Shown one piece after another: positions 2,928-25,864 of a stretch of DNA of 57,323 nt. A model generated the notes under the pieces. That model had not been told where the DNA came from and searched no databases. It worked only from the letters and a program-made list of their open reading frames with translations. Positions within the stretch are counted from its first letter, which is position 1. Each line of letters begins with the position of its first letter. Location of the stretch: NCBI GenBank assembly GCA_964641945.1, contig CAZXLQ010000002.1, positions 1 to 57,323 of the forward strand, read 5' to 3'. A program made the translations under genes and the position numbers. The stretch is from an uncultured Clostridia bacterium (GTDB taxonomy: Bacteria; Acidobacteriota; Blastocatellia; UBA7656; JADIYM01).

Positions 2928-2928
2928 C

Positions 2929-4041: not shown

Positions 4042-5441
4042 GACTCGGACTCCTCGTCACCGCTGGCTGGATCGACCGTCAACCCGTGTTTCTGCATCCG
4101 GTAGATGAGCGCGCTGCGCGTGATGCGCAGAAAGCGCGCGGCGCGGGTCTGATTGCCGTCGTGCCGCTCGAGGGCGAGTCGAAGCAATTCGCGCTCGACG
4201 TCGTCGAGCGACACGCCGTCCTCCGGCAATTCGAGGACGACACCGGCGACGTGGCGCGCACGATTGCCGATTGCCTCCGGCAGATCGTCGAGCGAGAGGA
4301 CCTCGGTCCGCGCCAGAACCACCATCCGCTCGATGACGTTCGAAAGCTCGCGGACGTTGCCGGGCCAGTCGTGCGAAGCCAGGGCCTCGATGACGCTGCG
4401 ATCGAGCCTGATACCGGACCGTCGGTGCCTCTCGAGGGATCGCGCAAGAAGGTGGGCGGCGAGCAGCGGGATGTCTTCGCGACGGTTCCGCAGCGGCGGC
4501 AGCTCGATCGGCACGACCGCAAGCCGAAAGAAGAGGTCTTCGCGGAACTCGTGCCTTCCGACCAACGCACCGAGGTCGCGATTCGAGGCAGCAATCACCC
4601 GGACATCGATGGCTCGTGGAGCGGACTCGCCGAGACGCACGACCTCGCGTTGCTCGAGGACGCGAAGCAGTTTCGGCTGAAGCGCGAGTGGCATCGAGCC
4701 GATCTCGTCGAGAAACAGGGTCCCGCCGGACGCGGCCTCAAATGTCCCGGTCGCATCCGTGGTCGCACCGGTGAAAGATCCCTTCCGGTGGCCGAAGAGC
4801 TCCGACTCGATGAGCGATTCGGGAATGGCGGCGCAATTGATCGCAACGAACGGCCCGGTCGCGCGCGGACTCGCGAGATGGATTCCCCGCGCAATCATTT
4901 CCTTGCCGGTGCCGGACTCGCCGGTCAGCAGAACGGACACGTCTGTTTCGGCGACCCGTTCGGCCATGTCGAGCACACGGCGCATCGCCTCGGACTCTCC
5001 GACGACGTTCTCGATGCGGTAGCGTTCGTGGAAGGCCCGCTTGAGCTGCCGGTTCTCGGAGATCGCCGCGCCAAACCGCAGCGCCTTCGCCACCGTCGCG
5101 AGCATCTGATCGCGGTTGTACGGCTTCGTCAGGTAGTCGAAGGCGCCGGCGCGAAGCGCCTCGACCGCCGTTTCCATGTCGCCGAATGCCGTCAGCACGA
5201 TGACCGGCGTCTCGGGCTGTACGGCGCCGATTCGACGGAGCAGGTCGATGCCCGAGATCCCGGGCATGCGGACGTCGGTGAGAACGCAGTCCACGTCGCT
5301 CGCCGCGACGTGCTGCGCCGCACTCTCGCCATCCTGAAGAGACGTCACCGCATGGCCGGCCTCAGTGAGCTGAAACTCGAGGATCCGCCGTATGCTCTCG
5401 TCGTCTTCGACGACGAGCACACGAGCCTTCCGCTTCGTCAT
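4038..5441 (-). CDS. Sigma54-dependent response regulator (NtrC/ZraR family: REC-AAA+-Fis HTH)
   Basis: Start at MTKRKARVLVVEDD, an ATGA overlap with the upstream gene. Walker A is GESGTGKE, the sigma54-contact loop is GSFTGA (GAFTGA variant), and the C-terminal HTH is AARFLRITRSALIYRMQKHGL. The longer 616-aa ORF in the track is an Arg-rich artefactual extension. Confidence 0.9.
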   Translation of the reverse strand: MTKRKARVLVVEDDESIRRILEFQLTEAGHAVTSLQDGESAAQHVAASDVDCVLTDVRMPGISGIDLLRRIGAVQPETPVIVLTAFGDMETAVEALRAGAFDYLTKPYNRDQMLATVAKALRFGAAISENRQLKRAFHERYRIENVVGESEAMRRVLDMAERVAETDVSVLLTGESGTGKEMIARGIHLASPRATGPFVAINCAAIPESLIESELFGHRKGSFTGATTDATGTFEAASGGTLFLDEIGSMPLALQPKLLRVLEQREVVRLGESAPRAIDVRVIAASNRDLGALVGRHEFREDLFFRLAVVPIELPPLRNRREDIPLLAAHLLARSLERHRRSGIRLDRSVIEALASHDWPGNVRELSNVIERMVVLARTEVLSLDDLPEAIGNRARHVAGVVLELPEDGVSLDDVERELLRLALERHDGNQTRAARFLRITRSALIYRMQKHGLTVDPASGDEESES

Positions 5442-5941
5442 CACTCGCCCGCCCACACCCGAGTCGCCTCGAGCGCCTTCACGGCGTCGTCTGTTCGGCC
5501 GGAGCGCACGAGCTCGGAGAACTCCAGATAACCGCGAGAAAGATCGTCGACGCGTTTCGCGTCCGCGGAAATGGCGTGCACGATCTCCATGGCCCGTTCG
5601 TCGTTTCGCACCGATGGCATCGCCGAGATGAGCCGCCCGTTGCTGACCAGCCGGACCGCCGGGCTGTCGACCCGTCGATGGAAGGCCACGATCGCATCCT
5701 CGAGCGCCTCGAGCTCGCGCTCGCGCCAGTTCGACCGCCACAGCGCCCAACCGAAGGCCACGGCCACGGCGACGAACATCGAACGGAACACGACCTGAGT
5801 CGCTCCCGGGTTGAAGACCTCGGCGATGAAGGAACTGGCTCCGAACGGTTCGCCGATGTGGCGATGCATGACGGCGTCGACGAGCCACATGAGCAACCCG
5901 AGCGCGCCTCCGAACACGATTTCCTTGTAGCGCCTGAGCAC
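5441..5941 (-). CDS. Small membrane protein of unknown function, translationally coupled to the sigma54 activator
   Basis: 166 aa with two predicted TM helices followed by a helical cytoplasmic tail. High GC3. It starts 15 nt downstream of the RND pump stop and has an ATGA overlap with the next gene. Confidence 0.6.
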   Translation of the reverse strand: MLRRYKEIVFGGALGLLMWLVDAVMHRHIGEPFGASSFIAEVFNPGATQVVFRSMFVAVAVAFGWALWRSNWRERELEALEDAIVAFHRRVDSPAVRLVSNGRLISAMPSVRNDERAMEIVHAISADAKRVDDLSRGYLEFSELVRSGRTDDAVKALEATRVWAGE

Positions 5942-5956
5942 GGCGTCCTCCTTCCC

Positions 5957-8900
5957 CTACGTCCCGGGATTCGGCAGCGGATCGAGCGGCGCTCCGGGGG
6001 ACCCCGCATGCGGCTTCCCTGTTTCCGGCGCCGTCGGTCGGACTTCGCCGTCGCGCTCGCGAATGACGCGTTCGGCAATCTTTCGCCCATAGAGCGAGAA
6101 GATTGCTGGCGTGACGAGCTGATCGAGCAGTGTCGAAGTCAGAATACCGCCGAGCAGAACGACGGCCATCGGATGCAGGATTTCCTTGCCGGGCTGGTCG
6201 GCAGCCAAAATCAGCGGAAGCAGTGAGAGTCCCGCAATGAGCGCCGTCATCATGACGGGCACAAGCCGTTCGAGCGATCCCCGGATGATCATCGACTCCG
6301 AGAATTCCTCGCCCTCTTCGCGCAGCAAGTGCATGTAGTGAGAGACCATCATGATGCCGTTCCGACTCGTGATGCCGATGAGCGAGACAAAGCCGACGAG
6401 CGTTGCAACCGAGAAGACGCCTCCGGTGAGAAACAGCGCCGCGATCGCTCCGATCAGCGCCAGCGGCACGTTCACGAGCACCTGGAGCGCCGAGCGCCAG
6501 TCGCCCAGGGCCTTGAAGAGTAGCAGGAAGATGGCGATGAGCGAGAAGAGCGACAGCACGAGCAGCCGCTGGGTCGCCTGCTGCTGCGCTTCGAACTGAC
6601 CGCCGTATTCCACGAAGTAGCCCTCGGGGAGCCTGGCCCCGGCCCCGATGCGCTGCCGCATTTCGGCCACGACGGAGCCGAGGTCGCGCCCGGCAACGTT
6701 CGCCGAGATGACGATGCGTCGGAGTGTGTTCTCGCGCAGCACCTGGTTGGGCCCGGGCAGCGATTCGATTGCGGCGACGGCCGACACGGGGATCTGCGTG
6801 CCCTGGGGTGTGTCGATCGTGACGGCGCGCAGGGCGTCCAGACTGCCGCGCGACGCGTCGTCGAACCGCACGACGACGTCGAACCGGCGCTGTCCCTCGA
6901 GCGCCTGCGAAACCCGACGTCCGTTGAGCGCCATCTGGAGCGTCTCGGCGACCTCGCCCGGTCGCACTCCGTACCGCGCGGCAGCCGTTCGGTCGATCGT
7001 GTACCGGATCTGCGGTATGAGCACCTGCTTCTCGATCTGCACGTCGACGGCGCCCGGGACCGTCGTCATGAGGTTGCGGATCTCCTCCGCCGTCGAGCGA
7101 AGCTGCGCGAGGTCGTCGCCGAAGAGCTTCACGGCGATCTGCGCCCGCACGCCCGACTGAAGATGGTCGATGCGATGCGAAATCGGTTGGCCGACACTCG
7201 TGTTCACGCCGGGAATGAGGGCGAGCTTCTCGCGGATGTCGGCGAGGACCTCGTCGCGCGGGCGGCCGTCGTGGTCGAGGTCGACGTCGATTTCGGTGTA
7301 GTGGACGCCCTCGGCGTGTTCGTCGAGCTCAGCGCGACCGGTACGCCTCCCGGTCGAAATGACATCGGGCACTTCGAGCAGCAGCCGTTCGGCAATCGAT
7401 CCGATCCGATCGCTTTCGGCTAGGCTCGTCCCTGGCTCGGCGAAGACGTTGATCGTGAGCGTTCCCTCGTTGAACTCGGGCAGAAAACTGGTTCCGACGA
7501 ACGGAAGCGCCGCCATCGACACAACGAAGAGCAGTGCGGCCGTCGCCACGACCTTCCACGGATTCCGGAGCGTCCGGCGAAGCAGGCGCTCGTCCCAGCG
7601 CTTCAGGAATCGCACGAGCCAGCTGTCACCGCCGTCGTCCCGGAATTTCATCTTCGGCAGCAGGAACGACGCGAGAACCGGCGTCACCGTGAGGCTCACG
7701 ACAAGCGACGCAAGCAGCGACGCGATGTAGGCAAGGCCGAGCGGAGCGAGGAGCCTGCCTTCGACGCCGGTCAGCGCGAAAAGCGGCAGAAAGACGAGCG
7801 CCACGATGAACGTCGCGTAGACGATGCTCGACCGGACCTCGAGCGAAGCGCGGAAGATCACCTCGATGACGGGGCGCGGCGCGGCAAGCAGACGGTTCTC
7901 CTTGATCCGGCGAAAGATGTTCTCGATATCGACGATCGAGTCGTCGACGAGCTCGCCGATCGCCACGGCCAGGCCGCCGAGCGTCATCGTGTTGATGGAC
8001 GAGCCCGTCGCCCAGAAGACGAGAAAAGCGATGACGAACGAGAGCGGAATCGCGGTGAGCGTGATTGCCGTCGTCCGCAGGTTCATCAGGAAGAGGAACA
8101 GCACGATGACGACGAGAATCGAGCCGTCCCTGAGCGCGTGAAGGATGTTGTCGATCGACGTGTTGATGAAGTGCGCCTGGCGGAAGAGCTGCGGGTTGAT
8201 CTCGATGTCGTCGGGCAGCGTGCGCCGAAGGTCCGAGATGGCGGCATCGATCGTGTCGGTGAGCTCGAGCGTCGAAGCGCCCGGCTGTTTCTGGACCGAC
8301 ATGATCACGGCCGGTTTGCCGTTGGCTCCCGCGTCACCGCGCTTGATTCTCGGACCGAACTCGACCGTGGCGACGTCGGCCAGCAGCACCGGCGTGCCGT
8401 TGCGGTACGCGACAGCCGTCTGCCCGAGCTCTTCCGGCGTGTAGAACCGGCCAAGCGTCCGGACCAGGTACTCCTGCGACTGCTCGTCGACGAAACCGCC
8501 CGTTGCGTTCACGTTCGACTGCTCGAGCGCCGCCGAGACTTCCTCGATCGTGACGCCGAACTGGGCGAGCTTCTGCGGCGAGACGAGCGCCTGGTATTGC
8601 TTCACACCGCCACCGATGTTGATGACCTGCGAGACGCCGGGGATTGTCAGGAGGCGCGGCCGAATCGTCCAGTCGGCCACGGATCGGACCTCGAGCGGAT
8701 CGGTCTCGCCGGACTTCGAGCTGACGGAGATGAGCAGGATCTCGCCCATGATCGACGAGATCGGCCCCATCGTCGGGGCGACGCCCGGCGGGAGCTGTTC
8801 GCGGGCAAGGGTCAGCTTCTCGGAGACGAGCTGCCGGTTCTTGAAGACGTCGGTGCCCCAGTCGAACTCGACATAAACGATTGACAACCCGATGCCGCTC

Positions 8901-9154
8901 TGCGAACGAACGCGCGTGACGCCGGGCGCCCCATTCATCGCCGTCTCGATCGGATAGGTGACGAGGGACTCGACTTCTTCCGGAGCGAGTCCCTCGGCCT
9001 CCGTGAGAATCGTGACGGTCGGCCGGTTCAGATCCGGCAGGACGTCGATCGGCAGCTTCACCGCCACGTAGCTGCCCCAGACGAGCAGCAGTGCAGCGAC
9101 CGCCACGACGAGCAGCCGGTTGTCGAGCGACCATCGAATGAGCGCGTTGAGCAT
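5957..9154 (-). CDS. CusA/CzcA-family heavy-metal efflux RND transporter (pump 1)
   Basis: 1065 aa. The N-terminus MLNALIRWSLDNRLLVVAVAALLLVWG...LPIDVLPDLNRPTVTILTEAEGLAPEEVESLVTYPIE is typical of the HME-RND family, with a 12-TM architecture. Confidence 0.9.
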   Translation of the reverse strand: MLNALIRWSLDNRLLVVAVAALLLVWGSYVAVKLPIDVLPDLNRPTVTILTEAEGLAPEEVESLVTYPIETAMNGAPGVTRVRSQSGIGLSIVYVEFDWGTDVFKNRQLVSEKLTLAREQLPPGVAPTMGPISSIMGEILLISVSSKSGETDPLEVRSVADWTIRPRLLTIPGVSQVINIGGGVKQYQALVSPQKLAQFGVTIEEVSAALEQSNVNATGGFVDEQSQEYLVRTLGRFYTPEELGQTAVAYRNGTPVLLADVATVEFGPRIKRGDAGANGKPAVIMSVQKQPGASTLELTDTIDAAISDLRRTLPDDIEINPQLFRQAHFINTSIDNILHALRDGSILVVIVLFLFLMNLRTTAITLTAIPLSFVIAFLVFWATGSSINTMTLGGLAVAIGELVDDSIVDIENIFRRIKENRLLAAPRPVIEVIFRASLEVRSSIVYATFIVALVFLPLFALTGVEGRLLAPLGLAYIASLLASLVVSLTVTPVLASFLLPKMKFRDDGGDSWLVRFLKRWDERLLRRTLRNPWKVVATAALLFVVSMAALPFVGTSFLPEFNEGTLTINVFAEPGTSLAESDRIGSIAERLLLEVPDVISTGRRTGRAELDEHAEGVHYTEIDVDLDHDGRPRDEVLADIREKLALIPGVNTSVGQPISHRIDHLQSGVRAQIAVKLFGDDLAQLRSTAEEIRNLMTTVPGAVDVQIEKQVLIPQIRYTIDRTAAARYGVRPGEVAETLQMALNGRRVSQALEGQRRFDVVVRFDDASRGSLDALRAVTIDTPQGTQIPVSAVAAIESLPGPNQVLRENTLRRIVISANVAGRDLGSVVAEMRQRIGAGARLPEGYFVEYGGQFEAQQQATQRLLVLSLFSLIAIFLLLFKALGDWRSALQVLVNVPLALIGAIAALFLTGGVFSVATLVGFVSLIGITSRNGIMMVSHYMHLLREEGEEFSESMIIRGSLERLVPVMMTALIAGLSLLPLILAADQPGKEILHPMAVVLLGGILTSTLLDQLVTPAIFSLYGRKIAERVIRERDGEVRPTAPETGKPHAGSPGAPLDPLPNPGT

Positions 9155-9184
9155 CTTTCTCCCCGAGCAGCGGCGCGTTCGGCG

Positions 9185-10081
9185 CTAGGCGCCGATCTGC
9201 AGGACGAATGGCACCGTGATGACCTTACCGGCACGCTGGAACTGCGCCCACACCTTGTAGAGACCGGCCTTCGGAAACTCGGTGTGCGCCATGACCTGAC
9301 TCGGACTGCCGGCCGCCTCGTGCGTGTTGCCGTGCGACCCGCCGTGATTCATCGCGCCATGGTCCATCCCCCCGGAATGCGCGTCCCCTTGGCCGTCCAT
9401 GTCTCCCGACATCGGATGGGCGTGCAGGAACTCCGAACCATCCTGGCTGATGAGGACGAAGTGGGCGTATTCACCGAGGTACTTCTCGAGGTTCGTGACC
9501 GGGTTGCCGCTGACCGCGTCCTTCACGTCGAAGTACAGCGTCGTGGGAGACCCGGGTTTCAATGCGCCGTCCGGCCGCAGTGTCACCGTGAGTCCATCGA
9601 CCGATTTCACGAGCGACGTATCGGCGACGAGCGCCTCTGGCGCACGTTGCGGTCCTTCGACATTGACCGGGATCGTGTCGACGGTCGCCTTGCCGCCTTC
9701 GGGCTTGTAGTCGGCATACAGCAGATACGGCCCACCGCTCGCGAATGTGTGCGTAACGGTCAGGCTGCCGTCGGCATTGGCCTGCGGGTGAATGTGGCTG
9801 AAATCGGCGAGGTCCTTCGAGACGACGAGCAGGTGCAGGGTCTTTTCGTGGACGACATCGAGGTTCCTGACGACGGCGCCGGAGGCATCCTTGACCGTGA
9901 ACGTAAGCTTGACCGGCTCACCGGCCTTGATGGTTGCCGGCTCCGTTGTCAGCTGCGCCTTCGCGACTCCCGTGGGCGTGGCTTTCTCAGCGGGCGCTCC
10001 GCCGCACGCAATCAACAGGGTCGCTCCACCAGTCAGCGCAACGGTCAGACATCCGATCAACAATCGATTCCCTGTTCGCAT
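9185..10081 (-). CDS. Lipoprotein with two tandem Ig-like (YtkA/FixH-like) domains and a His/Met/Asp-rich loop; putative periplasmic metal binder
   Basis: Start at MRTGNRLLIGCLTVALTGGATLLIACGG (lipobox), preceded by AAGGAG. Two related halves each end in an H-x-HP motif (FSHIHPQ and FLHAHPM). The second half carries HPMSGDMDGQGDAHSGGMDHGAMNHGGSHGNTHE. Confidence 0.65.
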   Translation of the reverse strand: MRTGNRLLIGCLTVALTGGATLLIACGGAPAEKATPTGVAKAQLTTEPATIKAGEPVKLTFTVKDASGAVVRNLDVVHEKTLHLLVVSKDLADFSHIHPQANADGSLTVTHTFASGGPYLLYADYKPEGGKATVDTIPVNVEGPQRAPEALVADTSLVKSVDGLTVTLRPDGALKPGSPTTLYFDVKDAVSGNPVTNLEKYLGEYAHFVLISQDGSEFLHAHPMSGDMDGQGDAHSGGMDHGAMNHGGSHGNTHEAAGSPSQVMAHTEFPKAGLYKVWAQFQRAGKVITVPFVLQIGA

Positions 10082-10125
10082 GGTTCTTACTCCTTCTTGG
10101 CGCCTTATTGGGCGCATTCCCGCAA

Positions 10126-12048
10126 CTACGGCTTCGTTGCACGAAGCTGGTACAGACCCTCGACGACGACGGCGTCGCCCGCCTTCAGGCCGGATGTCAC
10201 CGCGACGTACTCCTGACCCTCGCCGCCGATGGTGATCGGCCGCCGCTCGAACGACTCGCCGCCCGTGTGGACATAGACGTAGGTCTGGCCCTGATCGGAC
10301 ACGACGGCCAGCCTTGGAATCGCCAAAGCCGGGACCGCATCGGTCGTGTCGATCGTTACGTCGATGAACTGACCGTCGCGAAGCTGGTTGCCGGGATTCG
10401 GCACTGTGAAGACGACGGGCAAGGTGCGGGTCGCGGGATCGACGATCGACCCGATCGACACCAGTCGTCCGTTCCCCTCCCCGATGCGATAGACGACGTC
10501 CGGCTGTCCCGACAGGGTGAACGTCGCCGCGGTGAGGCCGCGGATCGCTTCGAGATGTCCCTCGAAGACTCTGGCCTCGACGTAGATACTCGACAGGTCG
10601 ACGATGCGCACGAGCTCGACACCGGCGTCGACCTGCTGGCCGCTCGTTGCGAGGATGTCGGTGACGATGCCCCCTACTGGCGCGATGAGCGGAAACGACC
10701 GGGATGCGCCCGTCGATCCGATGGACTTTTCGGCGACGGCAGCCTGCGCGTCGGCGGCCCTGGCGCCGGCCTCGGCCGTTGCGACCTCGAGCTCGGCGAT
10801 CCGCACGGCCGCTTCGGCTTCGTCGAGCCGCTTCTTCGGCGCCGCACCGATCTCCACGAGCGCTCTGGCTCTTGTGAGCTCGCGCTCGGCGACGGTGAGT
10901 CGCGCCCGCGCCTGGCTTGCTTCGCTTCGCTGCGCTGTCGCCAGCGCGCGCTGCTCGAGTGCGCGCGAGCGCAACTCGACGCGTTGGCCCTCGAGTTGCG
11001 CCTGTTCGGACGCGCCAAGCACTTGCTCGATCGATCCGATCGCCTGGCCGCGGCCGACGCTCGCGCCGATCCGAATGCCACCACCGAGCGTCAATCGGCC
11101 TGAGACCGGCGGCGAAACGATACCCTTCGCATCGGGCCGCGACTGGACCACGCCCGGCGCCTTGACACCGGCGACGACCGGACGCTCACCTGCTTCGACG
11201 GTGCGAATGCCGAAGAGAAGTTGTGACTGCTTCGGGATCGAAACGCTCAGGATCGATCCCGCCTCCGGTGCCGAGGCTGGTCCAGCCGCGGCGGATCCAC
11301 CGGGTTCCCGCTGCTCTCGTATTGGAACGAGCAACGACACGGCAGCGATGCCTGCGAGCAGGAGCGTGGCCGAGGCCGCGATTGGCCGGATCGGTCCTCG
11401 AAAGACACCCTGGTCGCGACGGCCAATGATCCGGAACGCCGGCAACGTCGCCGCAGCGCCGACCAATACGGCCAGGAGCCCATACCAGAAGAAGGCATTG
11501 ACCGGTGCCGCAATGATCGCAAGCGGAAAGTCGGTCGCGATCGTCCTCCCGTCCGACGTACGGACGTCGACCACGAGCCGTGCATCGCCCTGATCGTCGA
11601 AACGCATCGTCGTTGAATAGGCGCCGGACTCGGACGACGCCGCGATGCTCACGGGTTTGCCCGCAGCAGCGCCCGACAGCAGCGTCGGCGTGAGGCTCAC
11701 GGTCGCACCGACGATGGGCACGTCTCCGGTCGGGCCCCCGAATCCCCCTTCGACGAGCTCGACCACCGTCACTTCGACGAGCACCTGTTCGCCCGCCCGC
11801 GGGTCGATCGGCGAGTGCCAGAGCCCGACGCGGAACTGGCCTCCGTCGGTCGTGACGGTTCGTTCGGCGCGCCGACCGGGCGCACCGGCCGTCGACGCTC
11901 CGCTCGTCGCTGTGGCTTTCGGCGCCGCGGAGTCGTGACTGTGATCGTCGCCGCCATCCGCCAACGCCATCGCCGGGAGAATTGCGAGTAGCGCCGCGAC
12001 GGTCGAGAGCCGCACGAAGGCTCGCTGACTTGTGGAAGACGTTCGCAT
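10126..12048 (-). CDS. RND periplasmic adaptor (MFP/HlyD-type) with a ~250-aa N-terminal extension (signal peptide, His-rich tag, Ig-like domain, TM hairpin)
   Basis: The C-terminal ~380 aa has typical MFP features: a coiled-coil hairpin rich in A/E/R, then a beta-barrel and membrane-proximal domain (LIAPVGGIVTDI..., VYVHTGGESFERRPITIG). The N-terminus is MRTSS...ALADGGDDHSHDS, followed by a beta-rich domain and two TM helices. Confidence 0.85.
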   Translation of the reverse strand: MRTSSTSQRAFVRLSTVAALLAILPAMALADGGDDHSHDSAAPKATATSGASTAGAPGRRAERTVTTDGGQFRVGLWHSPIDPRAGEQVLVEVTVVELVEGGFGGPTGDVPIVGATVSLTPTLLSGAAAGKPVSIAASSESGAYSTTMRFDDQGDARLVVDVRTSDGRTIATDFPLAIIAAPVNAFFWYGLLAVLVGAAATLPAFRIIGRRDQGVFRGPIRPIAASATLLLAGIAAVSLLVPIREQREPGGSAAAGPASAPEAGSILSVSIPKQSQLLFGIRTVEAGERPVVAGVKAPGVVQSRPDAKGIVSPPVSGRLTLGGGIRIGASVGRGQAIGSIEQVLGASEQAQLEGQRVELRSRALEQRALATAQRSEASQARARLTVAERELTRARALVEIGAAPKKRLDEAEAAVRIAELEVATAEAGARAADAQAAVAEKSIGSTGASRSFPLIAPVGGIVTDILATSGQQVDAGVELVRIVDLSSIYVEARVFEGHLEAIRGLTAATFTLSGQPDVVYRIGEGNGRLVSIGSIVDPATRTLPVVFTVPNPGNQLRDGQFIDVTIDTTDAVPALAIPRLAVVSDQGQTYVYVHTGGESFERRPITIGGEGQEYVAVTSGLKAGDAVVVEGLYQLRATKP

Positions 12049-12056
12049 CGTGGTTC

Positions 12057-12668
12057 TCAGTGGCTATGCGCCTTGCCGTAGAGCGTCTGCATCACGTGCG
12101 AGTCCTGTCGCACGGCGTCGGCGATCGCTTTCGCCGTGGCTTCGTCGACGCCCGCGGCCTTGATGTCCTTCCCGACGGCGATGGCGTCGTCGTGCCCCTT
12201 GTTCTTGAACTGCGAAAGGAACGCTTCGTCCACGCCTGCAGCCCGAACTTCGCGAATCATCGGCAGGCCGTTGTGGCTGTCGTAGACGATGACGAGCTCG
12301 GTTCCGCCCGCCTTGACGACGGTTGCGGCGCCGATCTGCTTGCGAGCGCCCGAGCCGGTCTCGTAGGCGATGTAGGTGTGGTGGTCGCGGTCGGCGATCT
12401 TCGTCTCTGTACCCTTCTCGACCGTGGCGACCTGCTCGTCGGTCAGAGCCTTGTGCTCGATCGTCACCGATTGCGCCGTCGCGAACACAGCCTTGACGGC
12501 TGCGGGCACGTCGTCACTGGTCGCCTTCGGAGCGTTCGCGGCCGACGGCGCGGCGGCATCCGGTTTCGCGGTGGGCTTTGCCCCATCGCCGGCAGGCGGC
12601 GAGCCGGAGCACGCCGTGAGGCCCGAAAGCGCCGCCGCAAGAAGAAGAATCGACAATCGAATGTGCAT
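12057..12668 (-). CDS. Lipoprotein of unknown function
   Basis: Signal peptide and lipobox MHIRLSILLLAAALSGLTACSG. High GC3. Tightly packed between the OMF gene (stop 3 nt upstream) and the adaptor gene. Confidence 0.6.
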   Translation of the reverse strand: MHIRLSILLLAAALSGLTACSGSPPAGDGAKPTAKPDAAAPSAANAPKATSDDVPAAVKAVFATAQSVTIEHKALTDEQVATVEKGTETKIADRDHHTYIAYETGSGARKQIGAATVVKAGGTELVIVYDSHNGLPMIREVRAAGVDEAFLSQFKNKGHDDAIAVGKDIKAAGVDEATAKAIADAVRQDSHVMQTLYGKAHSH

Positions 12669-12670
12669 GG

Positions 12671-14152
12671 TCAGTTTCCTTTCAATTCGGTCGTGCCGTC
12701 CGGCGTGCGAGCCGGTGGCGTGATGATGGGCGCACCTTCCGAGGCAGGACCCGGTGGCGCCGGGATCGGTGTGGGCGGTGTGACACGCTCAACGGTCACG
12801 AGTGGAGCGCCGACCGCCGCTTCGAGGACCGCCAGGGCCGCATACGTGTCGCGAAGCGCGGCTGCGTACGCCGTCTCGATCTCGACCGTCCTGCGCTGCT
12901 CCGCAAGGACGTCGAACACCGACAGTCCGCCGAGCCCATAGGCCTGCCGGACGCTTGCGAGCGCCCTTCGCTGACGCGGGAGCATTGCCGTCGCGTAGAG
13001 CGTGAGAGACTCGGAAGCGGCACGGTAGCGCGCGAAGGCGTCGGCGACGTCACGCGTGATCGTCGCCTCGACCGCTTCGCGCTCGGCAAGTGCCTGCGAC
13101 CGGGCGGCCACGCTCGAGAGGATCTCGCCCTGGTTCCGGTTGGCGACCGGGATTTCGATCGAGATGCCGAACCTGAGCGTTCGCTCCGGGAGCGTACCCG
13201 TTACAGCGCCTGACTCAACGTTATGAAGCGTGGACGTCGAGTACCGAACGGAGGCGACGACGTCGGGAGTGCGCCCCGCCTCGGCAAGCCGCAATCGTGC
13301 CGCGGCGGCCTTCTCGGCGGCGCGCGCAGCGATAAGTTCGGGCCGAGACTGCCGGGCGAGCAGTGAGAGTTCATCAGCACTCTGGGCCACGAGCGGTGGC
13401 GACTCCGGAAGCGGTGCGATGACAAGCGCTTCGCCTGGAGCAAGTCCGACAAGCTCGCGAATCCCGGCGACCTCGACAGCGAGGCTTGCACGGGCTTCGA
13501 TCATCTGGACGCGAAGGCGGTCGGACTCCTGCTCGATGAGCGCGAGGTCGAGCCCCGACGCGTCGCCTTCGGCGAGCCGCGCTCGAGTCAGTCGCGCGAG
13601 ATCGTCATTGAGTCGCACGAGCTCGCTGTAGGCGGCGAGCAGCCGGTCGGCGCCCTGCGCGCGAGCGACGGCGCCGCGGACATCAGCCGAGAATCGATTC
13701 AGCACTGCATCGACCCCTGCTCGCGCTCGTTCGGTCTCGGCCTCCGCGACGTCGATGCGGCGTGTGCGCTTTCCGCCGAGCTCGAATCGCTGCGCGACGC
13801 CAACCTCGAATTCCTGCTTGTTCGTCTCGCCGAAGATCCCGGGCGGACCGACGACGGTCTCGAGCTCGGGATTTGGTCGAAGGCCTGCCTGCACTCGGGC
13901 GCCTTCGGCAATGTCGACCTGCAGTCGCTCGGCCCGAAGAGCCGGACGCCGGCTACGTCCGAGTTGAATGATCTGGTCGACCGTTTGTCCCGCCGTGTCG
14001 AAGAGCTCGCTCCGGTAAGGTGCGACGGCTGGGGGTGCCGCAGTCGCGGGATTCGCGGACTCCTGCGCGGACGCAATGCCAGGCCCGGCGATAGACAACG
14101 CGAGCACCACGGCTGCACACACGAGCCGGCGCATACGGTGAATGCGCCTCAT
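12671..14152 (-). CDS. TolC/CzcC-family outer-membrane efflux factor (OMF 1)
   Basis: Start set at MRRIHRMRRLVCAAVVLALSIAGPGIASAQ, which forms an ATGA overlap with the upstream ORF stop. An alternative ATG lies 18 nt downstream. Two repeated helical OEP-type halves are present. Confidence 0.85.
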   Translation of the reverse strand: MRRIHRMRRLVCAAVVLALSIAGPGIASAQESANPATAAPPAVAPYRSELFDTAGQTVDQIIQLGRSRRPALRAERLQVDIAEGARVQAGLRPNPELETVVGPPGIFGETNKQEFEVGVAQRFELGGKRTRRIDVAEAETERARAGVDAVLNRFSADVRGAVARAQGADRLLAAYSELVRLNDDLARLTRARLAEGDASGLDLALIEQESDRLRVQMIEARASLAVEVAGIRELVGLAPGEALVIAPLPESPPLVAQSADELSLLARQSRPELIAARAAEKAAAARLRLAEAGRTPDVVASVRYSTSTLHNVESGAVTGTLPERTLRFGISIEIPVANRNQGEILSSVAARSQALAEREAVEATITRDVADAFARYRAASESLTLYATAMLPRQRRALASVRQAYGLGGLSVFDVLAEQRRTVEIETAYAAALRDTYAALAVLEAAVGAPLVTVERVTPPTPIPAPPGPASEGAPIITPPARTPDGTTELKGN

Positions 14153-14739
14153 ACCGGTATCGCAACGGCGTTTCGGCGTCTCGAAATGCGCGGCCACAGA
14201 GCCACGACCCAGATGCCGGCAACGACCAGGAAAAACGCCGAGATGACGAGCGTGAACGGCGAGAGGGCGGACCTGCTGCCGACCGGCGCGGCCTTCGGTG
14301 CAGCAACGGTCAATGCGCCAACCTTCACGTCGAAGGTCTCGCCTCCGCGCTCGATCTGGACTGCGAGATCGTAGGTGCCCGACGGTTGCGCCGAGACGTC
14401 CGCAAACAGCATTCCCGGAATTTCACCAGTCGCGGCGCTCGTTCGAACGCTGCCCACGACGAGCGTGAGCTTCGCATCCGCGATCGGCGCGTTCGTGGCG
14501 GCATCGGTCAGGAAGAGCTCGGCGAGCCAGGGCGTGTCGGGAAGGACGGCGTCGTGTTTGACGACGATCTCCATTTCATGCGCTGTCGCGGTTCGAACGA
14601 CCTTCGAGCCGGCTTCGTTGACGACCTTGGCGGCGTCTTCACTGTGGTCCTCGCCGCCGTGTCCCAGAGCCGGCATCGCTGAGACAAGCGCAGCTGTCAA
14701 GACGAACAGAGCGACGGTGAAACGATGGAGCCTTCGCAT
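14149..14739 (-). CDS. Secreted, C-terminally TM-anchored His-tagged Ig-like protein; stand-alone paralogue of the adaptor N-terminal module
   Basis: 196 aa. Signal peptide, then a mature N-terminus HGGEDHSED, a beta-rich domain, and a TM helix (LSPFTLVISAFFLVVAGIWVVALW). It is the first gene downstream of a consensus sigma54 promoter. Confidence 0.65.
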   Translation of the reverse strand: MRRLHRFTVALFVLTAALVSAMPALGHGGEDHSEDAAKVVNEAGSKVVRTATAHEMEIVVKHDAVLPDTPWLAELFLTDAATNAPIADAKLTLVVGSVRTSAATGEIPGMLFADVSAQPSGTYDLAVQIERGGETFDVKVGALTVAAPKAAPVGSRSALSPFTLVISAFFLVVAGIWVVALWPRISRRRNAVAIPV

Positions 14740-14780: not shown

Positions 14781-14795
14781 GCAAACAACGTGCCG
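14781..14795 (-). promoter_or_regulatory. Sigma54 promoter P1 (GGCACG-TTGT-TTGCT) for the 10-gene RND1 operon
   Basis: The minus strand reads CCGGCACGTTGTTTGCTAC, an exact GG-N10-GC match to the extended consensus. The -12 element lies ~40 nt upstream of the ATG at 14739. Confidence 0.75.
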
Positions 14796-14894
14796 GGCCG
14801 ACACCGGGACACGGTCGACGCAGAAGTTGCTGCGATAGATGCCCTAGTGAATCCATTCGGCACGATACTTAGTATGTTGGACGCGCCGCCAAAC

Positions 14895-14930
14895 GTCTGG
14901 TTTCAGACAGCGGGCTGTTTGAAACCAGAC
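14895..14930. promoter_or_regulatory. 36-bp near-perfect palindrome (17-bp arms, one mismatch); candidate enhancer (UAS) for P1
   Basis: Sequence is GTCTGGTTTCAGACAGC-GG-GCTGTTTGAAACCAGAC. It is centred ~117 bp upstream of the P1 -24 element and contains GTCTG-N4-CAGAC, which is also found upstream of P5. It could alternatively be the terminator hairpin of the decayed upstream gene. Confidence 0.45.
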
Positions 14931-14971
14931 AGTCCGTTCTAGCGTTGAAGGGGTTCGAGCACGTCGCGCCG

Positions 14972-15217
14972 TCAGTCAGCTTGTCCGCGCAGCATCCGCG
15001 TGCCGTAGGACCACACGTAGTCGCCGGCCTTGTCAGGCGTGAACTCGATCGTCGTCGTCGTTGATCGAGGGCACGTCGCGCGCAACTCCGAAGTGGCCGA
15101 ACACAACGTGCTGGCTGCACTGTGCCACTCGCACTCTCGGTGGCCATGTCGCGTGCGCCGACTGCACATTCCGGCACGCCATGCTGCCATCCGGACCTCG
15201 GTCTAGACCGAGGTCAT
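14972..15217 (-). pseudogene. Decayed cupredoxin-like (plastocyanin/EfeO-N type) gene remnant
   Basis: A GGGAGGA RBS and ATG are followed by an in-frame TAG after 4 codons. One frame gives ...CSQHVVFGHFGVARDVPSINDDDD and, after a frameshift in the GAC repeat, IEFTPDKAGDYVWSYGTRMLRG. The expected family motif is ...EFTP.KAGEY.F.CGMGMLRG, and the Cys/Met ligands are mutated. Confidence 0.5.
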
Positions 15218-21509: not shown

Positions 21510-21524
21510 GCAACTGGCGTGCCG
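21510..21524 (-). promoter_or_regulatory. Sigma54 promoter P6 (GGCACG-CCAG-TTGCC) upstream of the GH57 cluster
   Basis: The minus strand reads GCCGGCACGCCAGTTGCCC, an exact GGCACG-N4-TTGC match. It is intergenic and correctly oriented. Confidence 0.65.
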
Positions 21525-21666
21525 GCGCGCGGCCCGGCGACATCGCGCGAGCATCAGGGGCGCAAACCTTGATGAGCAGGGCGCCACGGGCGGCCTCGTC
21601 CAGATGCCGCGAGGCGCGATCCCAATCCGGGGTGCGGAAAACCGCGCTCCCCGCCGCGAACTATTC

Positions 21667-21720
21667 CGTAAGTTTATATTCTATTTAGATTTACGAGTTT
21701 ATCTTGTGTTTATGTTCGTC
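21667..21720. repeat. AT-rich block with four phased (G/A)TTTA(T/G) boxes (copy A)
   Basis: Sequence is CGTAAGTTTATATTCTATTTAGATTTACGAGTTTATCTTGTGTTTATGTTCGTC, with box spacing 11-14-11. By hand alignment, 46 of 54 positions are identical to the reverse complement of 43712-43765. Confidence 0.6.
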
Positions 21721-21869
21721 TGACGCTCTTGTTATCCGACGCTGGCTTTGACGGACTCAGCGTGCCACTTGTCGCGACGCCAATTGAGCGTTGGCGGAGC
21801 AGCGTTCGGCCCGGAGGCCCGAAGCAGGCGGCTTTCTCGTTTCACAGACGAGAGGCCAAATCCAGATCG

Positions 21870-22127: not shown

Positions 22128-22143
22128 TGGCGCTTTACTTGCT
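22128..22143 (+). promoter_or_regulatory. Weaker sigma54-like promoter P3 (TGGCGCT-TTAC-TTGCT) upstream of the LTXXQ gene
   Basis: Correct GG-N10-GC spacing with TGGC and TTGCT. It lies 117 nt upstream of the ATG at 22260 and has two mismatches in the -24 half. Confidence 0.35.
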
Positions 22144-23902: not shown

Positions 23903-25138
23903 TCAAGCGAGTCTGGCCTCGCGAGCCCGATCCAGCACGTTCCAGGCGACCATCAATGCGAGCGCGACCAGCAACGCACCACTGAGCAAATACGGCGCGT
24001 CGACATGCCAGATGAAGAGCATACCGCCCAGGAGGGGTCCGATCGCCTGTCCGAGACTGTTGGCGGCGTTCTGAATACCGAGCGACGCCCCGGTACTTCC
24101 TTCTCCGCCGCGCGTCGAGATGAGGGCCGCCAGATTCGGCGCGATGAAAGCCATCCCGAATGCGAGCAATGCGACAAAGGCGAAGACAAAGAACGATGTC
24201 CGAGCTGTCGCAAGCAACGCGATGCCGGTACCCATCAAGGCAAAGCCAATGCCAATCTGGAGCATCTCGCCAACTCGTCCGGCAAGGAATCCAACAGCGC
24301 CTGCCTGAAAGACGGTCATCACCAGGCCGCACACGACAAAGATGTATCCGACCTCGACGGGTCCGAAATCGAACTTCGCCTTCGCGTAGAGCGCGATCGT
24401 CCCCTCGAACATCGTCAGGGCAAGTTGTCCGGCGAGTGCAAGGGCAAGGAGCGGACGAAGACGGATTAACAGTCCTCGCCAATCCGTCGTCGTGTCCACG
24501 ATCGGCTCATCCGCCGGTCCTGCTGGCCTGGACTCCGGCAGCCAGCGCAATGCCGCAAACAGCGTCACAAGACCTAACACCGCTGCCGCAAAAAACGGAA
24601 TCGAAAAGGCGTCAAACGTTAAGTGGCCGATGCTCCATCGCAAATGAATCTCACTGCGAGACAGCAATCCGCCAAGTGCTGGTCCGACAACGACGCCGAG
24701 ACTCACCGCCGTGCCGAGCCACGCCATTCCGCGACTTCGCTGCTCTGGCGTCGTCATATCGGCAACGTAGGCCGCAGAAACCGGCAATGTCGCCGACGAC
24801 AATACTCCTCCGACGATTCGCGCTGCGTACAAGAGCCACAGCGACGTGGACAAACCGAACATCACTTGCGCCACAACGTAGCCCGCGATGCCAATGAGAA
24901 TCAGCGGTCTCCTGCCGATGCGATCCGACCAGCGTCCCCACAAAGGTGCGAAGACGAGTTGAGCGAGCGCGTACACACCAGTCAAAAGGCCGACGTGCAT
25001 CACCATTGACTGTTGCGTCGATCCCTCTTCCAACGCGAGGCGCTCCACGTAGAAGGGCAGCACGGGCATCGTAATGCCCAGGCCGATCATGACGACGAAC
25101 AGGCAGGCGAGAAGTACGAAGAGGTGCTTGTTGATCAC
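23903..25138 (-). CDS. MFS transporter (DHA1/tetracycline-efflux-like, 12 TM)
   Basis: 411 aa. Motif A-like sequence is GRWSDRIGRRPLILIG. The hydropathy pattern is typical of the family. Confidence 0.85.
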   Translation of the reverse strand: MINKHLFVLLACLFVVMIGLGITMPVLPFYVERLALEEGSTQQSMVMHVGLLTGVYALAQLVFAPLWGRWSDRIGRRPLILIGIAGYVVAQVMFGLSTSLWLLYAARIVGGVLSSATLPVSAAYVADMTTPEQRSRGMAWLGTAVSLGVVVGPALGGLLSRSEIHLRWSIGHLTFDAFSIPFFAAAVLGLVTLFAALRWLPESRPAGPADEPIVDTTTDWRGLLIRLRPLLALALAGQLALTMFEGTIALYAKAKFDFGPVEVGYIFVVCGLVMTVFQAGAVGFLAGRVGEMLQIGIGFALMGTGIALLATARTSFFVFAFVALLAFGMAFIAPNLAALISTRGGEGSTGASLGIQNAANSLGQAIGPLLGGMLFIWHVDAPYLLSGALLVALALMVAWNVLDRAREARLA

Positions 25139-25265: not shown

Positions 25266-25280
25266 GCAACCCTCGTGCCG
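25266..25280 (-). promoter_or_regulatory. Sigma54 promoter P5 (GGCACG-AGGG-TTGCG) for the MFS transporter
   Basis: The minus strand reads CGGCACGAGGGTTGCGTC, an exact GGCACG-N4-TTGC match ~125 nt upstream of the ATG at 25138. Confidence 0.7.
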
Positions 25281-25352
25281 ACAAACGACGTCCTGAAATC
25301 CCGCTTTTCGTGCGTACTTTCTCGGACGAAGCGGAGCATCGCCCCACGAAAT

Positions 25353-25366
25353 GTCTGTCTTCAGAC
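25353..25366. promoter_or_regulatory. GTCTG-N4-CAGAC inverted repeat; candidate UAS for P5
   Basis: Sequence is GTCTGTCTTCAGAC, 73-86 bp upstream of the P5 -24 element. The same 5-4-5 element (GTCTGGTTTCAGAC) lies 100-113 bp upstream of P1. Confidence 0.4.
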
Positions 25367-25864
25367 ACGTCGATGTCTGCAGAGCCGTGATTCCCTGTCA
25401 TGGCAGCGACAGGGCCAACAGCGAGGAGCAGGCGACCGTCGCTGGAGACCTGCACGTTGTAGGGAGAGATGGACGTCGCAATCGATTTGACCTGACCGGT
25501 GCTGAGATCAATCACGGTGATGGAGTTGCCCCGCCCGTCGGCCGTAAACGCGAAACCCGCCCCCGGCAAAACCTCCGACGAGGCGGCGGCGGAAGACCCA
25601 TTGGAGTTGCCTGTTCGCTCCTGGTGAACGGCAGCTGGCCGTGAACAGGCGGCTACGAGAACAAACAGGGCCGTGAGTAATGCAGGCCAGGCGAATTTGT
25701 TCATTGAAAAGTCCCCCTTTTCGGAGATCCGAGTTGCCCGGAACCGTCTCTCCGGAGCGGGCAATCGGTGTCTCGAGTCGCTCACCAGTTGCGATCTCGG
25801 ACAGGCACATCGAATCGACAGAGACACGGCCAGCCGCACGCCAGTCGCTCTCCTTCCGTTCATC

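What the first reader, a model, noticed from the sequence alone, without database searches (positions are those of the whole stretch)
14895..14930. Shared GTCTG-N4-CAGAC enhancer-like element upstream of two sigma54 promoters (RND1 operon and MFS gene)
The 36-bp near-perfect palindrome at 14895-14930 contains GTCTGGTTTCAGAC, 100-113 bp upstream of the P1 -24 element. An independent GTCTGTCTTCAGAC at 25353-25366 lies 73-86 bp upstream of the P5 -24 element. Both the position and the dyad symmetry are what bacterial enhancer-binding proteins use. The P1 operon itself ends with the NtrC-type regulator, so this suggests an autoregulated circuit that also recruits the MFS exporter. A conserved GTTGCTGC box also sits ~31 bp upstream of the -24 element at both P1 (14826-33) and P2 (29662-69).
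Basis: seen in the sequence. Interest (0 to 1): 0.65.

Follow-up and report, generated by a model that had tools for sequence, protein, structure and literature searches.

The report
Enhancer sites for a metal-efflux regulator
The palindrome is really two adjacent binding sites (TGTCTG-N4-CAGACA) of the kind used by sigma-54 activator proteins; they are conserved in front of a heavy-metal efflux operon across distant Acidobacteria-like bacteria, which makes this an ordinary but well-supported new example of a known type of genetic switch.

Summary
The 36-bp palindrome (14895-14930) and the second GTCTG-N4-CAGAC (25353-25366) exist, lie 99 and 72 nt upstream of exact sigma-54 promoters, and are far above chance.

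The reading as an enhancer (UAS) is strongly supported for P1. In 15 other promoter regions, with first-gene proteins down to 32-40% identical, the flanks diverge completely. Two 16-bp dyads TGTCTG-N4-CAGACA stay put, 21-22 bp apart (33 bp once) and 54-107 nt upstream of a sigma-54-like -24/-12 motif (no such motif follows on the L028 gene strand).

The large hairpin is not conserved and has no T-run, so it is not a terminator. A DNA-only scan of 185,579 genomes with the double-site pattern recovered distant homologues of the same operon in Pyrinomonadaceae MAGs. That is the clade holding the closest named relatives of the operon's NtrC-type regulator, whose recognition helix is invariant. In one relative the dyads also precede the regulator's own operon, so autoregulation is conserved.

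For P5 (the MFS gene) the site matches the consensus perfectly and chance is excluded. It is absent upstream of MFS orthologues elsewhere, so that recruitment looks recent and is untested.

Binding by this particular regulator is inferred, not shown. This is a new member of a known kind.

The parts
14916..14931 (-). Promoter-distal enhancer site of P1. On the promoter strand it reads TGTCTGGTTTCAAACA.
   Evidence: PWM built only from sites of other loci scores it 22.8 bits against a null maximum of 16.7. Conserved in all orthologous promoters.
14894..14909 (-). Promoter-proximal enhancer site of P1. On the promoter strand it reads TGTCTGAAACCAGACG. It lies 22 bp start-to-start from the distal site and 99 nt from the -24 GG.
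   Evidence: PWM 20.4 bits. Conserved as TGTCTG-WAAY-YRGAC. Spacing and distance.
14781..14794 (-). Sigma-54 promoter P1 (GGCACGTTGTTTGC). Predicted start near 14769.
   Evidence: Exact consensus hit. Conserved in all close orthologues. RNA contigs of two metatranscriptomes end at 14752 and 14745.
14820..14838 (-). Conserved box TCGCAGCAACTTCTGCG between enhancer and promoter. Function unknown.
   Evidence: Conserved in 9 of 9 close orthologues. Absent in the distant orthologues L021, L024, L027, L031 and L036.
2929..14739 (-). Predicted P1 operon, in transcription order: 196-aa His-rich secreted protein, outer-membrane factor, 203-aa protein, CusB/CzcB-like adaptor, 310-aa His/Met-rich protein, CusA/CzcA-family RND pump, 166-aa membrane protein, NtrC-type regulator (4038-5441), DUF4118 histidine kinase (2929-4041). 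DUF4198 (2103-3011) and LVIVD (225-2018) genes follow.
   Evidence: Pfam and NCBIfam. Same gene order in L032. Genes overlap or are at most 15 nt apart between the pump and the kinase.
4038..5441 (-). NtrC-family sigma-54 activator, the candidate binder of the dyads. It has a REC domain with the DVRMPG Asp, Walker A GESGTGKE, a GSFTGA loop and a C-terminal HTH_8.
   Evidence: Recognition helix ITRSALIYRMQK identical in the five aligned orthologues.
25352..25367 (-). Single enhancer site upstream of P5: TGTCTGAAGACAGACA on the promoter strand, a perfect match to the consensus. An extra CAGACA half-site lies 6 nt further upstream (25374-25379), in the same register as at P1.
   Evidence: 0 mismatches. 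PWM 20.7 bits. 72 nt from the GG. Not a copy of the P1 region.
25266..25279 (-). Sigma-54 promoter P5 (GGCACGAGGGTTGC) ahead of the MFS gene.
   Evidence: GGAAGGA ribosome-binding site before the GTG at 25138.
23903..25138 (-). MFS efflux-type transporter, the predicted second target.
   Evidence: Pfam MFS_1. Best NCBIfam matches fall below all cut-offs.
14978..15137 (-). Frameshifted remnant of a Cupredoxin_1-family gene, ending about 40-50 nt before the dyads.
   Evidence: tblastn with the intact L020 cupredoxin gives two frames, 62-63% identity.

Best explanation
The element is the upstream activating sequence (enhancer) of sigma-54 promoter P1. It consists of two 16-bp dyad sites, TGTCTG-N4-CAGACA, 22 bp apart and therefore on the same face of the helix, about 100 nt upstream of the -24 GG.

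Proposed mechanism:
1. The membrane histidine kinase (DUF4118-HisKA-HATPase) senses metal stress and phosphorylates the NtrC-family regulator encoded in the same operon.
2. Dimers of the regulator bind the two dyads through the C-terminal Fis-type helix-turn-helix and assemble into the active AAA+ ring.
3. DNA looping brings the ring to the closed sigma-54 holoenzyme complex at GGCACG-N4-TTGC.
4. ATP hydrolysis through the GSFTGA loop opens the promoter.

The transcript covers a CusA/CzcA-type heavy-metal RND efflux system with periplasmic His/Met-rich accessory proteins, and also the regulator and kinase. The circuit is therefore positively autoregulated. One further perfect site plus a half-site 72 nt upstream of P5 puts an MFS transporter under the same regulator in this genome.

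Shown here: the sites, their non-random occurrence, their conservation, spacing and position, their co-occurrence with the regulator's orthologues, and the absence of terminator features.

Inferred: which protein binds, the activating signal (a metal), looping, and activity at P5.
For: Presence and statistics:
-.

Phylogenetic footprint:
- In 9 close orthologous promoters with different upstream genes (HMA, cupredoxin, a 117-aa ORF, or none), only four things are kept: the two dyads, a box near -50, the -24/-12 promoter and the 5'UTR.
- In 16 promoter regions, the two-site ones have sites 21-22 bp apart (33 once); where a sigma-54 motif was found, sites lie 54-107 nt from the GG.

Independent rediscovery:
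- The double-site pattern scanned over genome contigs gave 11 hits, against about 2 expected by my estimate.
- Six hits are next to homologues of genes of this operon. L021, L024, L027 and L031 are at 32-46% protein identity. L022 is a close orthologue, and L028 lies next to a DUF4198 homologue.

PWM tests:
- A PWM trained without the window finds exactly the three window sites at 20-23 bits; the next hit scores 13.1 and the null maximum is 16.7.
- A PWM trained on the window and its close orthologues finds 24 hits of at least 15 bits in 178 kb of other loci. Seventeen lie 54-140 nt upstream of a sigma-54 motif, and none falls in the six MFS control loci.

Link to the regulator:
- Its closest named relatives are from Pyrinomonadaceae, Pyrinomonas and Acidobacteriota, the clade that gave 5 of the 11 DNA-scan hits, including 5 of the 6 next to operon-gene homologues.
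- L032 has the same operon, sites and regulator.
- L036 has sites before both the RND operon and the regulator-kinase operon.
- The Pyrinomonas MAG PSLQ01 carries the regulator (L038) and the target with sites (L024) on separate contigs.
- The recognition helix is invariant among orthologues and differs in a paralogue.
- The regulator has all activator motifs.

Transcription:
- RNA contigs of two biofilm metatranscriptomes cover the first gene and end at 14752/14745. That is about 17-24 nt downstream of the predicted +1, with nothing upstream.
Against: - No binding or expression experiment exists. Assigning the dyads to this regulator rather than another sigma-54 activator of the genome rests on linkage and co-occurrence.
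- L035 carries two activators next to the sites, so the assignment is not unique there.
- P5 is not conserved with the MFS gene in six orthologous loci.
- MFS transcripts were not assembled in the runs where the first P1 gene is expressed.
- The RNA evidence comes from assembled contigs, which show presence but not absence.
- L046 could not be used, because its operon promoter lies outside the fetched DNA.
- In this window the two sites also form a strong hairpin (-30.7 kcal/mol, z -3.8). It lies about 40-50 nt after a gene remnant, so an added structural role here cannot be fully excluded.
Confidence: 0.8

Rival explanations
1. The dyads are an enhancer, but for a different sigma-54 activator encoded elsewhere in the genome. 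The operon's own regulator would act on other targets.
For: The window has four more exact sigma-54 promoters without this dyad and no second activator gene, so other activators must exist in this genome. L035 has a second activator immediately downstream of such dyads.
Against: Sites and the orthologous regulator are linked in the window, L032 and L036. In L036 the sites precede the regulator's own operon. The recognition helix is invariant wherever the motif is invariant, whereas the L035 paralogue has a different helix. The taxonomic range of the motif matches that of the regulator's orthologues.
Confidence: 0.1
2. The palindrome is a transcription terminator or RNA-stabilising hairpin of the decayed upstream cupredoxin gene, with no role at P1.
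For: Strong hairpin in the window (-30.7 kcal/mol, z -3.8). It lies about 40-50 nt after the remnant's stop and 42 nt after the intact cupredoxin gene in L020.
Against: No T-run, and it is not called by the terminator scan. The long stem is not conserved: 9-12 of 17 positions in L014, L019, L020 and L001, while the half-sites are invariant, and folds of orthologues lose it. Its distance is fixed relative to the promoter, not to whatever gene lies upstream. The same dyads recur at P5 and before divergently transcribed operons in L036. No Rfam family matches.
Confidence: 0.03
3. The P5 site is a relic or a fortuitous capture. P1 is a true target, but the MFS gene is not activated through this site; the site and promoter may have been carried in by a rearrangement and be silent.
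For: MFS orthologues at 69-85% identity have no such site. The site lies in the non-homologous tail of a truncated ORF, in a region with a Tn3 transposase fragment and duplicated gene fragments. No MFS RNA contigs reach the promoter. There is only one full site instead of two.
Against: It is a perfect 16-mer match, with about 0.003 expected per window from my estimate of 57 kb/4^12 and 0.05 for up to one mismatch. It sits at enhancer distance from an exact sigma-54 promoter, followed by a good ribosome-binding site and an intact gene. The flanking half-site is in the same register as at P1. The segment is kept identical in 20 metagenomes.
Confidence: 0.25
4. The dyads are sites of a site-specific recombinase, such as res subsites of a Tn3-family resolvase whose half-sites also begin TGTC, or copies of a repeated palindromic element.
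For: A Tn3 transposase fragment lies 2 kb from P5. The resemblance of the half-site to resolvase sites is recalled from memory only.
Against: The sites are 16 bp long, whereas res subsites are 25-34 bp (from memory). There is no resolvase gene in the window. The sites are conserved at a fixed distance from sigma-54 promoters in loci showing no mobile-element genes next to the sites. Only three copies exist in 57 kb.
Confidence: 0.01

Closest known systems
NtrC enhancer at glnAp2 (enteric bacteria)
   Same: Tandem dyad sites for a REC-AAA+-HTH_8 response regulator, set on the same face of the DNA, about 100 bp upstream of a sigma-54 promoter. Activation by phosphorylation-driven oligomerisation. 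The regulator is part of its own regulon. (Established knowledge; the domain architecture was tested.)
   Different: Different sequence: TGCACC-N5-GGTGCA against TGTCTG-N4-CAGACA. Different signal and targets. The regulator scores 453 bits against the NtrC equivalog cut-off of 558.6, so it is not NtrC.
ZraSR-ZraP (HydHG), the metal-responsive sigma-54 two-component system of E. coli and Salmonella
   Same: An NtrC-family two-component system linked to metal stress, with sigma-54 promoters and autoregulation. The ZraR structure 1OJL is among the solved relatives.
   Different: The target here is an HME-RND efflux operon plus an MFS transporter, not a periplasmic Spy/CpxP-like protein. The kinase has a DUF4118 membrane domain instead of ZraS's periplasmic sensor. 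Scores are far below the equivalog cut-offs: 390.6 against 760 for ZraR and 192 against 479 for ZraS.
AtoSC
   Same: Best NCBIfam matches of both the regulator (487 bits) and the kinase (247 bits).
   Different: Below the cut-offs of 714 and 646. The gene context is metal efflux, not acetoacetate metabolism.
NifA upstream activator sequence TGT-N10-ACA
   Same: TGTCTG-N4-CAGACA satisfies TGT-N10-ACA and lies at a similar distance from a sigma-54 promoter. (The motif is established knowledge, recalled from memory.)
   Different: The regulator has a REC domain, not the GAF domain of NifA. The six-base half-sites are more specific, and there is no nif context.
CusRS/CzcRS control of heavy-metal RND operons
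   Same: The same kind of target, a CusA/CzcA-family pump with adaptor and outer-membrane factor. A second RND operon in this window sits next to an OmpR-type pair.
   Different: Those systems use OmpR-type regulators and sigma-70 promoters with promoter-proximal boxes. Here the control is a sigma-54 enhancer.

Membership tests
Enhancer (UAS) of a sigma-54 promoter bound by a bacterial enhancer-binding protein | A -24/-12 sigma-54 promoter downstream on the same strand | tested here: met
   GGCACGTTGTTTGC at 14781-14794(-) and GGCACGAGGGTTGC at 25266-25279(-). Six exact hits against 0.41 expected.
Enhancer (UAS) of a sigma-54 promoter bound by a bacterial enhancer-binding protein | Dyad-symmetric site(s) roughly 70-150 bp upstream, often two in helical phase | tested here: met
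   Two sites 22 bp apart, 99 nt from the GG at P1. One site plus a half-site at 72 nt at P5.
Enhancer (UAS) of a sigma-54 promoter bound by a bacterial enhancer-binding protein | Conservation of the sites at orthologous promoters while the flanks diverge | tested here: met
   Met for P1. Not met for P5: six MFS orthologue loci lack it.
Enhancer (UAS) of a sigma-54 promoter bound by a bacterial enhancer-binding protein | A cognate activator with a DNA-binding domain in the same genome, co-occurring with the motif | tested here: met
   REC-AAA+-HTH_8 protein in the operon. Orthologues are linked to the sites in L032 and L036 and present in the same MAG as L024. The recognition helix is invariant.
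Enhancer (UAS) of a sigma-54 promoter bound by a bacterial enhancer-binding protein | Direct binding by the activator and site-dependent activation | not testable with these tools
   Needs EMSA or footprinting and reporter assays.
Intrinsic (Rho-independent) terminator | GC-rich stem-loop followed directly by a T-run | tested here: not met
   Not called by the terminator scan. The tails read GTTTGG and AGTCCG.
Intrinsic (Rho-independent) terminator | Stem kept across relatives | tested here: not met
   Complementarity of the 17-nt arms ranges from 9 to 16 of 17, and the stem is lost in the L014 fold and the partial L001 fold.
ZraR / NtrC / AtoC equivalogs (NCBIfam) | Score above the curated equivalog cut-off | tested here: not met
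   AtoC 487 against 714, NtrC 453 against 558.6, ZraR 391 against 760. It is an NtrC-family member outside the named equivalogs.
CusA/CzcA heavy-metal efflux RND (the target operon) | Score above the TIGR00914 cut-off | tested here: met
   870.5 bits against 701.45.
Known structured RNA (Rfam) | Match to any Rfam covariance model | tested here: not met
   Only one chance-level hit elsewhere in the stretch (E 0.48) and none at P5.

The most novel reading that the evidence does not exclude
The TGTCTG-N4-CAGACA enhancer and its NtrC-type regulator form a portable sigma-54 control module for metal resistance. The module would be ancestral in Pyrinomonadaceae-like Acidobacteriota. It would wire in new targets (an MFS exporter here, an ECF sigma factor in L021, a second sigma-54 activator in L035) simply through a single 16-bp site appearing next to a -24/-12 promoter. 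It would now be spreading on a near-identical island found in sludge, sediment, soil and biofilm metagenomes worldwide.
Probability: 0.3. Interest if true: 0.5.

Novelty: new member of a known kind. Interest (0 to 1): 0.38.

Why it matters
It gives a concrete, testable binding motif and regulon for an uncharacterised NtrC-family two-component system. The predicted regulon comprises a heavy-metal RND operon, the regulator's own genes and, in some genomes, further targets. It lies in a phylum (Acidobacteriota) where I know of almost no experimentally described transcriptional regulation; my literature searches found no description of this system or motif.

It also shows heavy-metal RND efflux under sigma-54 enhancer control rather than the usual OmpR-type control. 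The island carrying it is widespread in wastewater metagenomes. The mechanism itself is textbook.

Tried and rejected
- Terminator reading: scan, folds and conservation of the long stem all speak against it.
- Known RNA family: none.
- P5 as a duplicate of the P1 regulatory region: only the 34 nt holding the sites align.
- Conservation of P5 with MFS orthologues: looked for in 6 metagenome loci and not found.
- Variation in near-identical runs: the P5 segment is 100% identical in 20 runs, so it gives no comparative information.
- RNA evidence at P5: only small internal pieces.
- Same dyad at the other four sigma-54 promoters: none above the null; they carry unrelated dyads.
- Aligning the P2/P30025 intergenic region with L022 to test the GTTGCTGC box: not alignable.
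- An additional orthologue locus, L046: the promoter lies outside the fetched DNA.
- Literature searches for the motif or for sigma-54 control of HME-RND pumps: nothing specific.
- An IHF site between enhancer and promoter: inspected by eye only, with no convincing conserved match.
- Resolvase res site or repeated palindromic element: rejected on site length, copy number and context. The properties of res sites are from memory.

Full report

The window is 64.8% G+C. At 14895-14930 there is an inverted repeat with 17-nt arms, 94% complementary, and a 2-nt loop.

The counts against chance are as follows.
- Exact GTCTG-N4-CAGAC occurs twice, at 14895 and 25353, against 0.07 expected. No shuffle out of 100 reaches two.
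- Allowing one mismatch adds only the second arm of the palindrome at 14917. At that looser setting the short pattern is not above chance: 3 found against 2.28 expected.
- The extended 16-mer TGTCTG-N4-CAGACA with up to one mismatch gives the same three places against 0.05 expected.
- Exact GGCAC-N5-TTGC occurs six times against 0.41 expected. Two of these are 14781-14794(-) and 25266-25279(-).

Read on the promoter strand, P1 is cTGTCTGgtttCAaACAg-N5-TGTCTGaaacCAGACg, followed by 99 nt and then GGCACGTTGTTTGC. P5 is CAGACA-N6-TGTCTGaagaCAGACA, followed by 72 nt and then GGCACGAGGGTTGC.

**2. Gene context**

P1 heads a tightly packed minus-strand cluster. In transcription order it encodes:
- a 196-aa secreted His-rich protein;
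- an outer-membrane factor;
- a 203-aa protein;
- a CusB/CzcB-like adaptor;
- a 310-aa His/Met-rich protein;
- a CusA/CzcA-family RND pump (TIGR00914, 870 bits against a cut-off of 701);
- a 166-aa membrane protein;
- an NtrC-family activator (REC, sigma-54 AAA+, HTH_8);
- a DUF4118-HisKA-HATPase kinase;
- DUF4198 and LVIVD proteins.

The activator carries the usual motifs: the phospho-acceptor Asp context, Walker A, a GSFTGA loop and a Fis-type helix-turn-helix.

It is the only sigma-54 activator gene in the window. The other regulators are an OmpR-type pair next to a second RND operon and an ArsR-rhodanese protein. The window as a whole is a metal-resistance island. It holds three RND systems, a P-type ATPase, a multicopper oxidase, a CDF transporter and MFS transporters.

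**3. Phylogenetic footprint at P1**

The first gene's product has only 13 homologues, all from metagenomes. I fetched their contigs and aligned nine non-redundant upstream regions.

Upstream of the dyads the sequences are unrelated, and the neighbouring gene differs: an HMA protein, a cupredoxin, a 117-aa ORF, or nothing intact. Four blocks are kept:
- TGTCTG-N4-C..ACAG, then 4-5 nt, then TGTCTG-WAAY-YRGAC;
- a box TCGCAGCAACTTCTGCG;
- the promoter CGGCACGT-N3-TTYGCT;
- the 5'UTR.

The roughly 55 nt between the proximal dyad and the box vary freely.

The large palindrome is not conserved. The 17-nt arms match at only 9-12 positions in L014, L019, L020 and L001, and the folds of L014 and L001 (the L001 range cut off its distal dyad) show no long stem. 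The '36-bp palindrome' is therefore a by-product of two adjacent dyads whose spacers happen to mirror each other in this genome.

**4. Independent rediscovery from DNA alone**

I scanned the 185,579-genome collection with TGTCTG-N4-CNNACAG-N4/5-TGTCTG-N6-GAC. This gave 11 places. My estimate for 20 specified bases in 596 Gb, two strands and two gap lengths is about 2 by chance.

Five hits are in Acidobacteriota/Pyrinomonadaceae MAGs, and one is a close orthologue of the window's operon.
- In L021, L024, L027 and L031 the double site lies upstream of a sigma-54-like promoter. Downstream lie homologues of the same first gene (32-40% identity) and, where the fetched DNA reaches them, of the outer-membrane factor (44-46%), the 203-aa protein and the adaptor.
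- L028 places the double site next to a DUF4198 homologue.
- The rest are two WOR-3 contigs, a tandem repeat, a Pontibacter site and a Geminicoccaceae site. They have no such context and are about what chance predicts.

Two PWM tests agree.
- A PWM built only from sites outside the window scores the three window sites at 20.4-22.8 bits. The next hit scores 13.1, and the maximum over 30 randomised windows is 16.7.
- A PWM built from the window and its close orthologues finds 24 hits of at least 15 bits in 178 kb of other loci. Seventeen lie 54-140 nt upstream of a sigma-54 motif. None falls in the six MFS-derived control loci.

**5. Link to the regulator**

The regulator's closest named relatives (57-64% identity) come from Pyrinomonadaceae, Pyrinomonas and Acidobacteriota. 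That is the clade that gave 5 of the 11 DNA-scan hits.
- L032 repeats the whole operon, with sites, promoter and a 96%-identical regulator.
- In L036 (Pyrinomonadaceae, 62% identity) the RND operon and the regulator-kinase operon are divergent. Each has its own sigma-54 promoter preceded by two dyads, 22 and 33 bp apart. Autoregulation is thus kept in a different gene arrangement.
- In the Pyrinomonas MAG PSLQ01 the regulator pair (L038) and the target with sites (L024) lie on different contigs.
- In L035 a TGTTTG variant of the double site precedes a sigma-54 promoter for a second activator.

The helix-turn-helix segment GNQTRAARxLxITRSALIYRMQK is identical in the five aligned orthologues. 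It differs in the L035 paralogue, which reads ISREQLRYRLKK.

All this fits the operon's regulator as the binder, but it remains inference.

**6. Rivals**

*Terminator.* The scan does not call one, and there is no T-run. The long stem is not conserved (section 3). The sites keep a fixed distance to the promoter, not to the upstream gene. The upstream gene remnant is real: a frameshifted Cupredoxin_1 fragment at 14978-15137.

In two biofilm metatranscriptomes the contigs over the first gene end at 14752 and 14745. That is 17-24 nt downstream of the +1 predicted from the -12 element (about 14769), and nothing lies over the dyads. Contigs show presence rather than absence, so this is supporting evidence, not proof.

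*Known RNA.* None.

*Repeat element or recombinase site.* Only three copies exist, the sites are 16 bp long, and there is no resolvase gene.

**7. P5**

The P5 site matches the consensus perfectly. It sits at enhancer distance from an exact sigma-54 promoter. A CAGACA half-site lies 6 nt upstream, in the same register as the distal P1 site. It is not a copy of the P1 region. Chance is excluded.

There are four cautions.
- MFS orthologues at 69-85% identity in six metagenome loci have no such site. L040 and L043 do keep a GG-N10-GC element close to the start codon.
- The site lies in the non-homologous tail of a truncated ORF. The surrounding region has a Tn3 transposase fragment and duplicated gene fragments.
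- No informative RNA was found.
- The segment is identical in 20 runs from sludge, sediment, soil, biofilm and plastisphere, so it gives no comparative signal.

The MFS gene is therefore a plausible, recently recruited target that remains untested.

**8. The GTTGCTGC box**

It sits at the stated coordinates, 31-32 nt from the -24 GG at P1 and at the ATPase promoter. At P1 it is part of a block conserved in all nine close orthologues. It is missing in the distant orthologues. I could not test its conservation at the ATPase promoter. Its function is unknown, and the shared 8-mer could be chance.

**9. Comparison and verdict**

The system works like the NtrC and ZraR enhancers. Tandem dyads in helical phase lie about 100 bp upstream of a sigma-54 promoter. 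They are bound by a phosphorylation-activated REC-AAA+-HTH_8 protein that also drives its own synthesis.

The regulator is not a member of the named NtrC, ZraR or AtoC equivalogs, since all scores fall below the cut-offs. The motif satisfies the NifA-type TGT-N10-ACA rule (recalled from memory), but the regulator is not NifA.

The target, a heavy-metal RND pump under sigma-54 control, is less usual than OmpR-type control. My literature searches found no description of this system or motif.

It is a new member of a known kind. The motif and regulon prediction are useful, but the mechanism is not surprising.

Noticed in passing
window 21510-21523(-), 23800-23813(-), 29616-29629(-), 30025-30038(+): Four further exact sigma-54 promoters lie ahead of a GH57 gene, an OMF fragment, a P-type ATPase and a 236-aa His/Met-rich protein. 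None has the TGTCTG dyad, and the window encodes no second sigma-54 activator. They must depend on a regulator encoded elsewhere.
   Followed up: partly
window 22026-22048 and 22128-22143 (+): A perfect 7-bp inverted repeat ATAACTG-N9-CAGTTAT lies about 80 nt upstream of a sigma-54-like TGGCGCTTTACTTGCT. Both sit ahead of a PF13801 'heavy-metal resistance' (Spy/ZraP-like) gene at 22239-22799. This may be another enhancer-promoter pair.
   Followed up: no
window 22723-23856: Rearrangement scars: a Tn3 transposase fragment (22796-23332, 75 of 389 profile positions), a duplicated MFS fragment (about 22723-22977), and an N-terminal fragment of an OMF2-like gene (23251-23856) that keeps its own sigma-54 promoter.
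   Followed up: partly
window 14978-15137 (-): A frameshifted remnant of a Cupredoxin_1-family gene, in two frames. The Cys of the WTCGMRM motif is replaced by Tyr. The gene is intact in L020, directly upstream of the same dyads.
   Followed up: yes
window 25400-25863 (-): An ORF with a signal peptide and beta-propeller-like repeats appears truncated. Its reading frame runs on through the P5 dyad and promoter without recognisable homology.
   Followed up: partly
window 25100-25900: This segment has 100% of its sampled words in 20 public runs from sludge, freshwater sediment, soil, biofilm and plastisphere metagenomes. That suggests a mobile island or a cosmopolitan wastewater organism.
   Followed up: partly
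L035 13830-13866 and 14128-15528: A TGTTTG variant of the double site with a sigma-54 promoter precedes a second sigma-54 activator that has a different recognition helix. This may be a regulatory cascade. Sigma-54-like promoter motifs lie near further metal-related genes (YtkA, OMF/RND) downstream.
   Followed up: partly
L021 2231-2246; L036 7768-8397: An ECF sigma factor gene neighbours the RND operon in two Acidobacteriota loci. In L021 a further perfect dyad and a GGAGC-type -24/-12 element lie upstream of the ORFs that contain the sigma-70 region-4-like segment.
   Followed up: no
L027, L028, L031 (downstream of the sites): In the Pyrinomonadaceae loci the first ORF after the promoter encodes a small protein with a conserved G(I/L)F(F/Y)KCP motif (followed by xGGFASL in L028 and L031). 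It precedes the 196-aa homologue and is absent from the window's operon.
   Followed up: no
L022 (record CAZQBW010000079.1): A contig labelled 'uncultured Clostridia bacterium' MAG carries genes 84-97% identical to this island, at 64% G+C. It is probably a mis-binned contig.
   Followed up: no
window 21640-21730: A sharply AT-rich stretch ends in TCGTCTGACGCTC. From memory this resembles the GTCTGACGCTC core of Tn3-type terminal inverted repeats, so it may be a transposon end.
   Followed up: no
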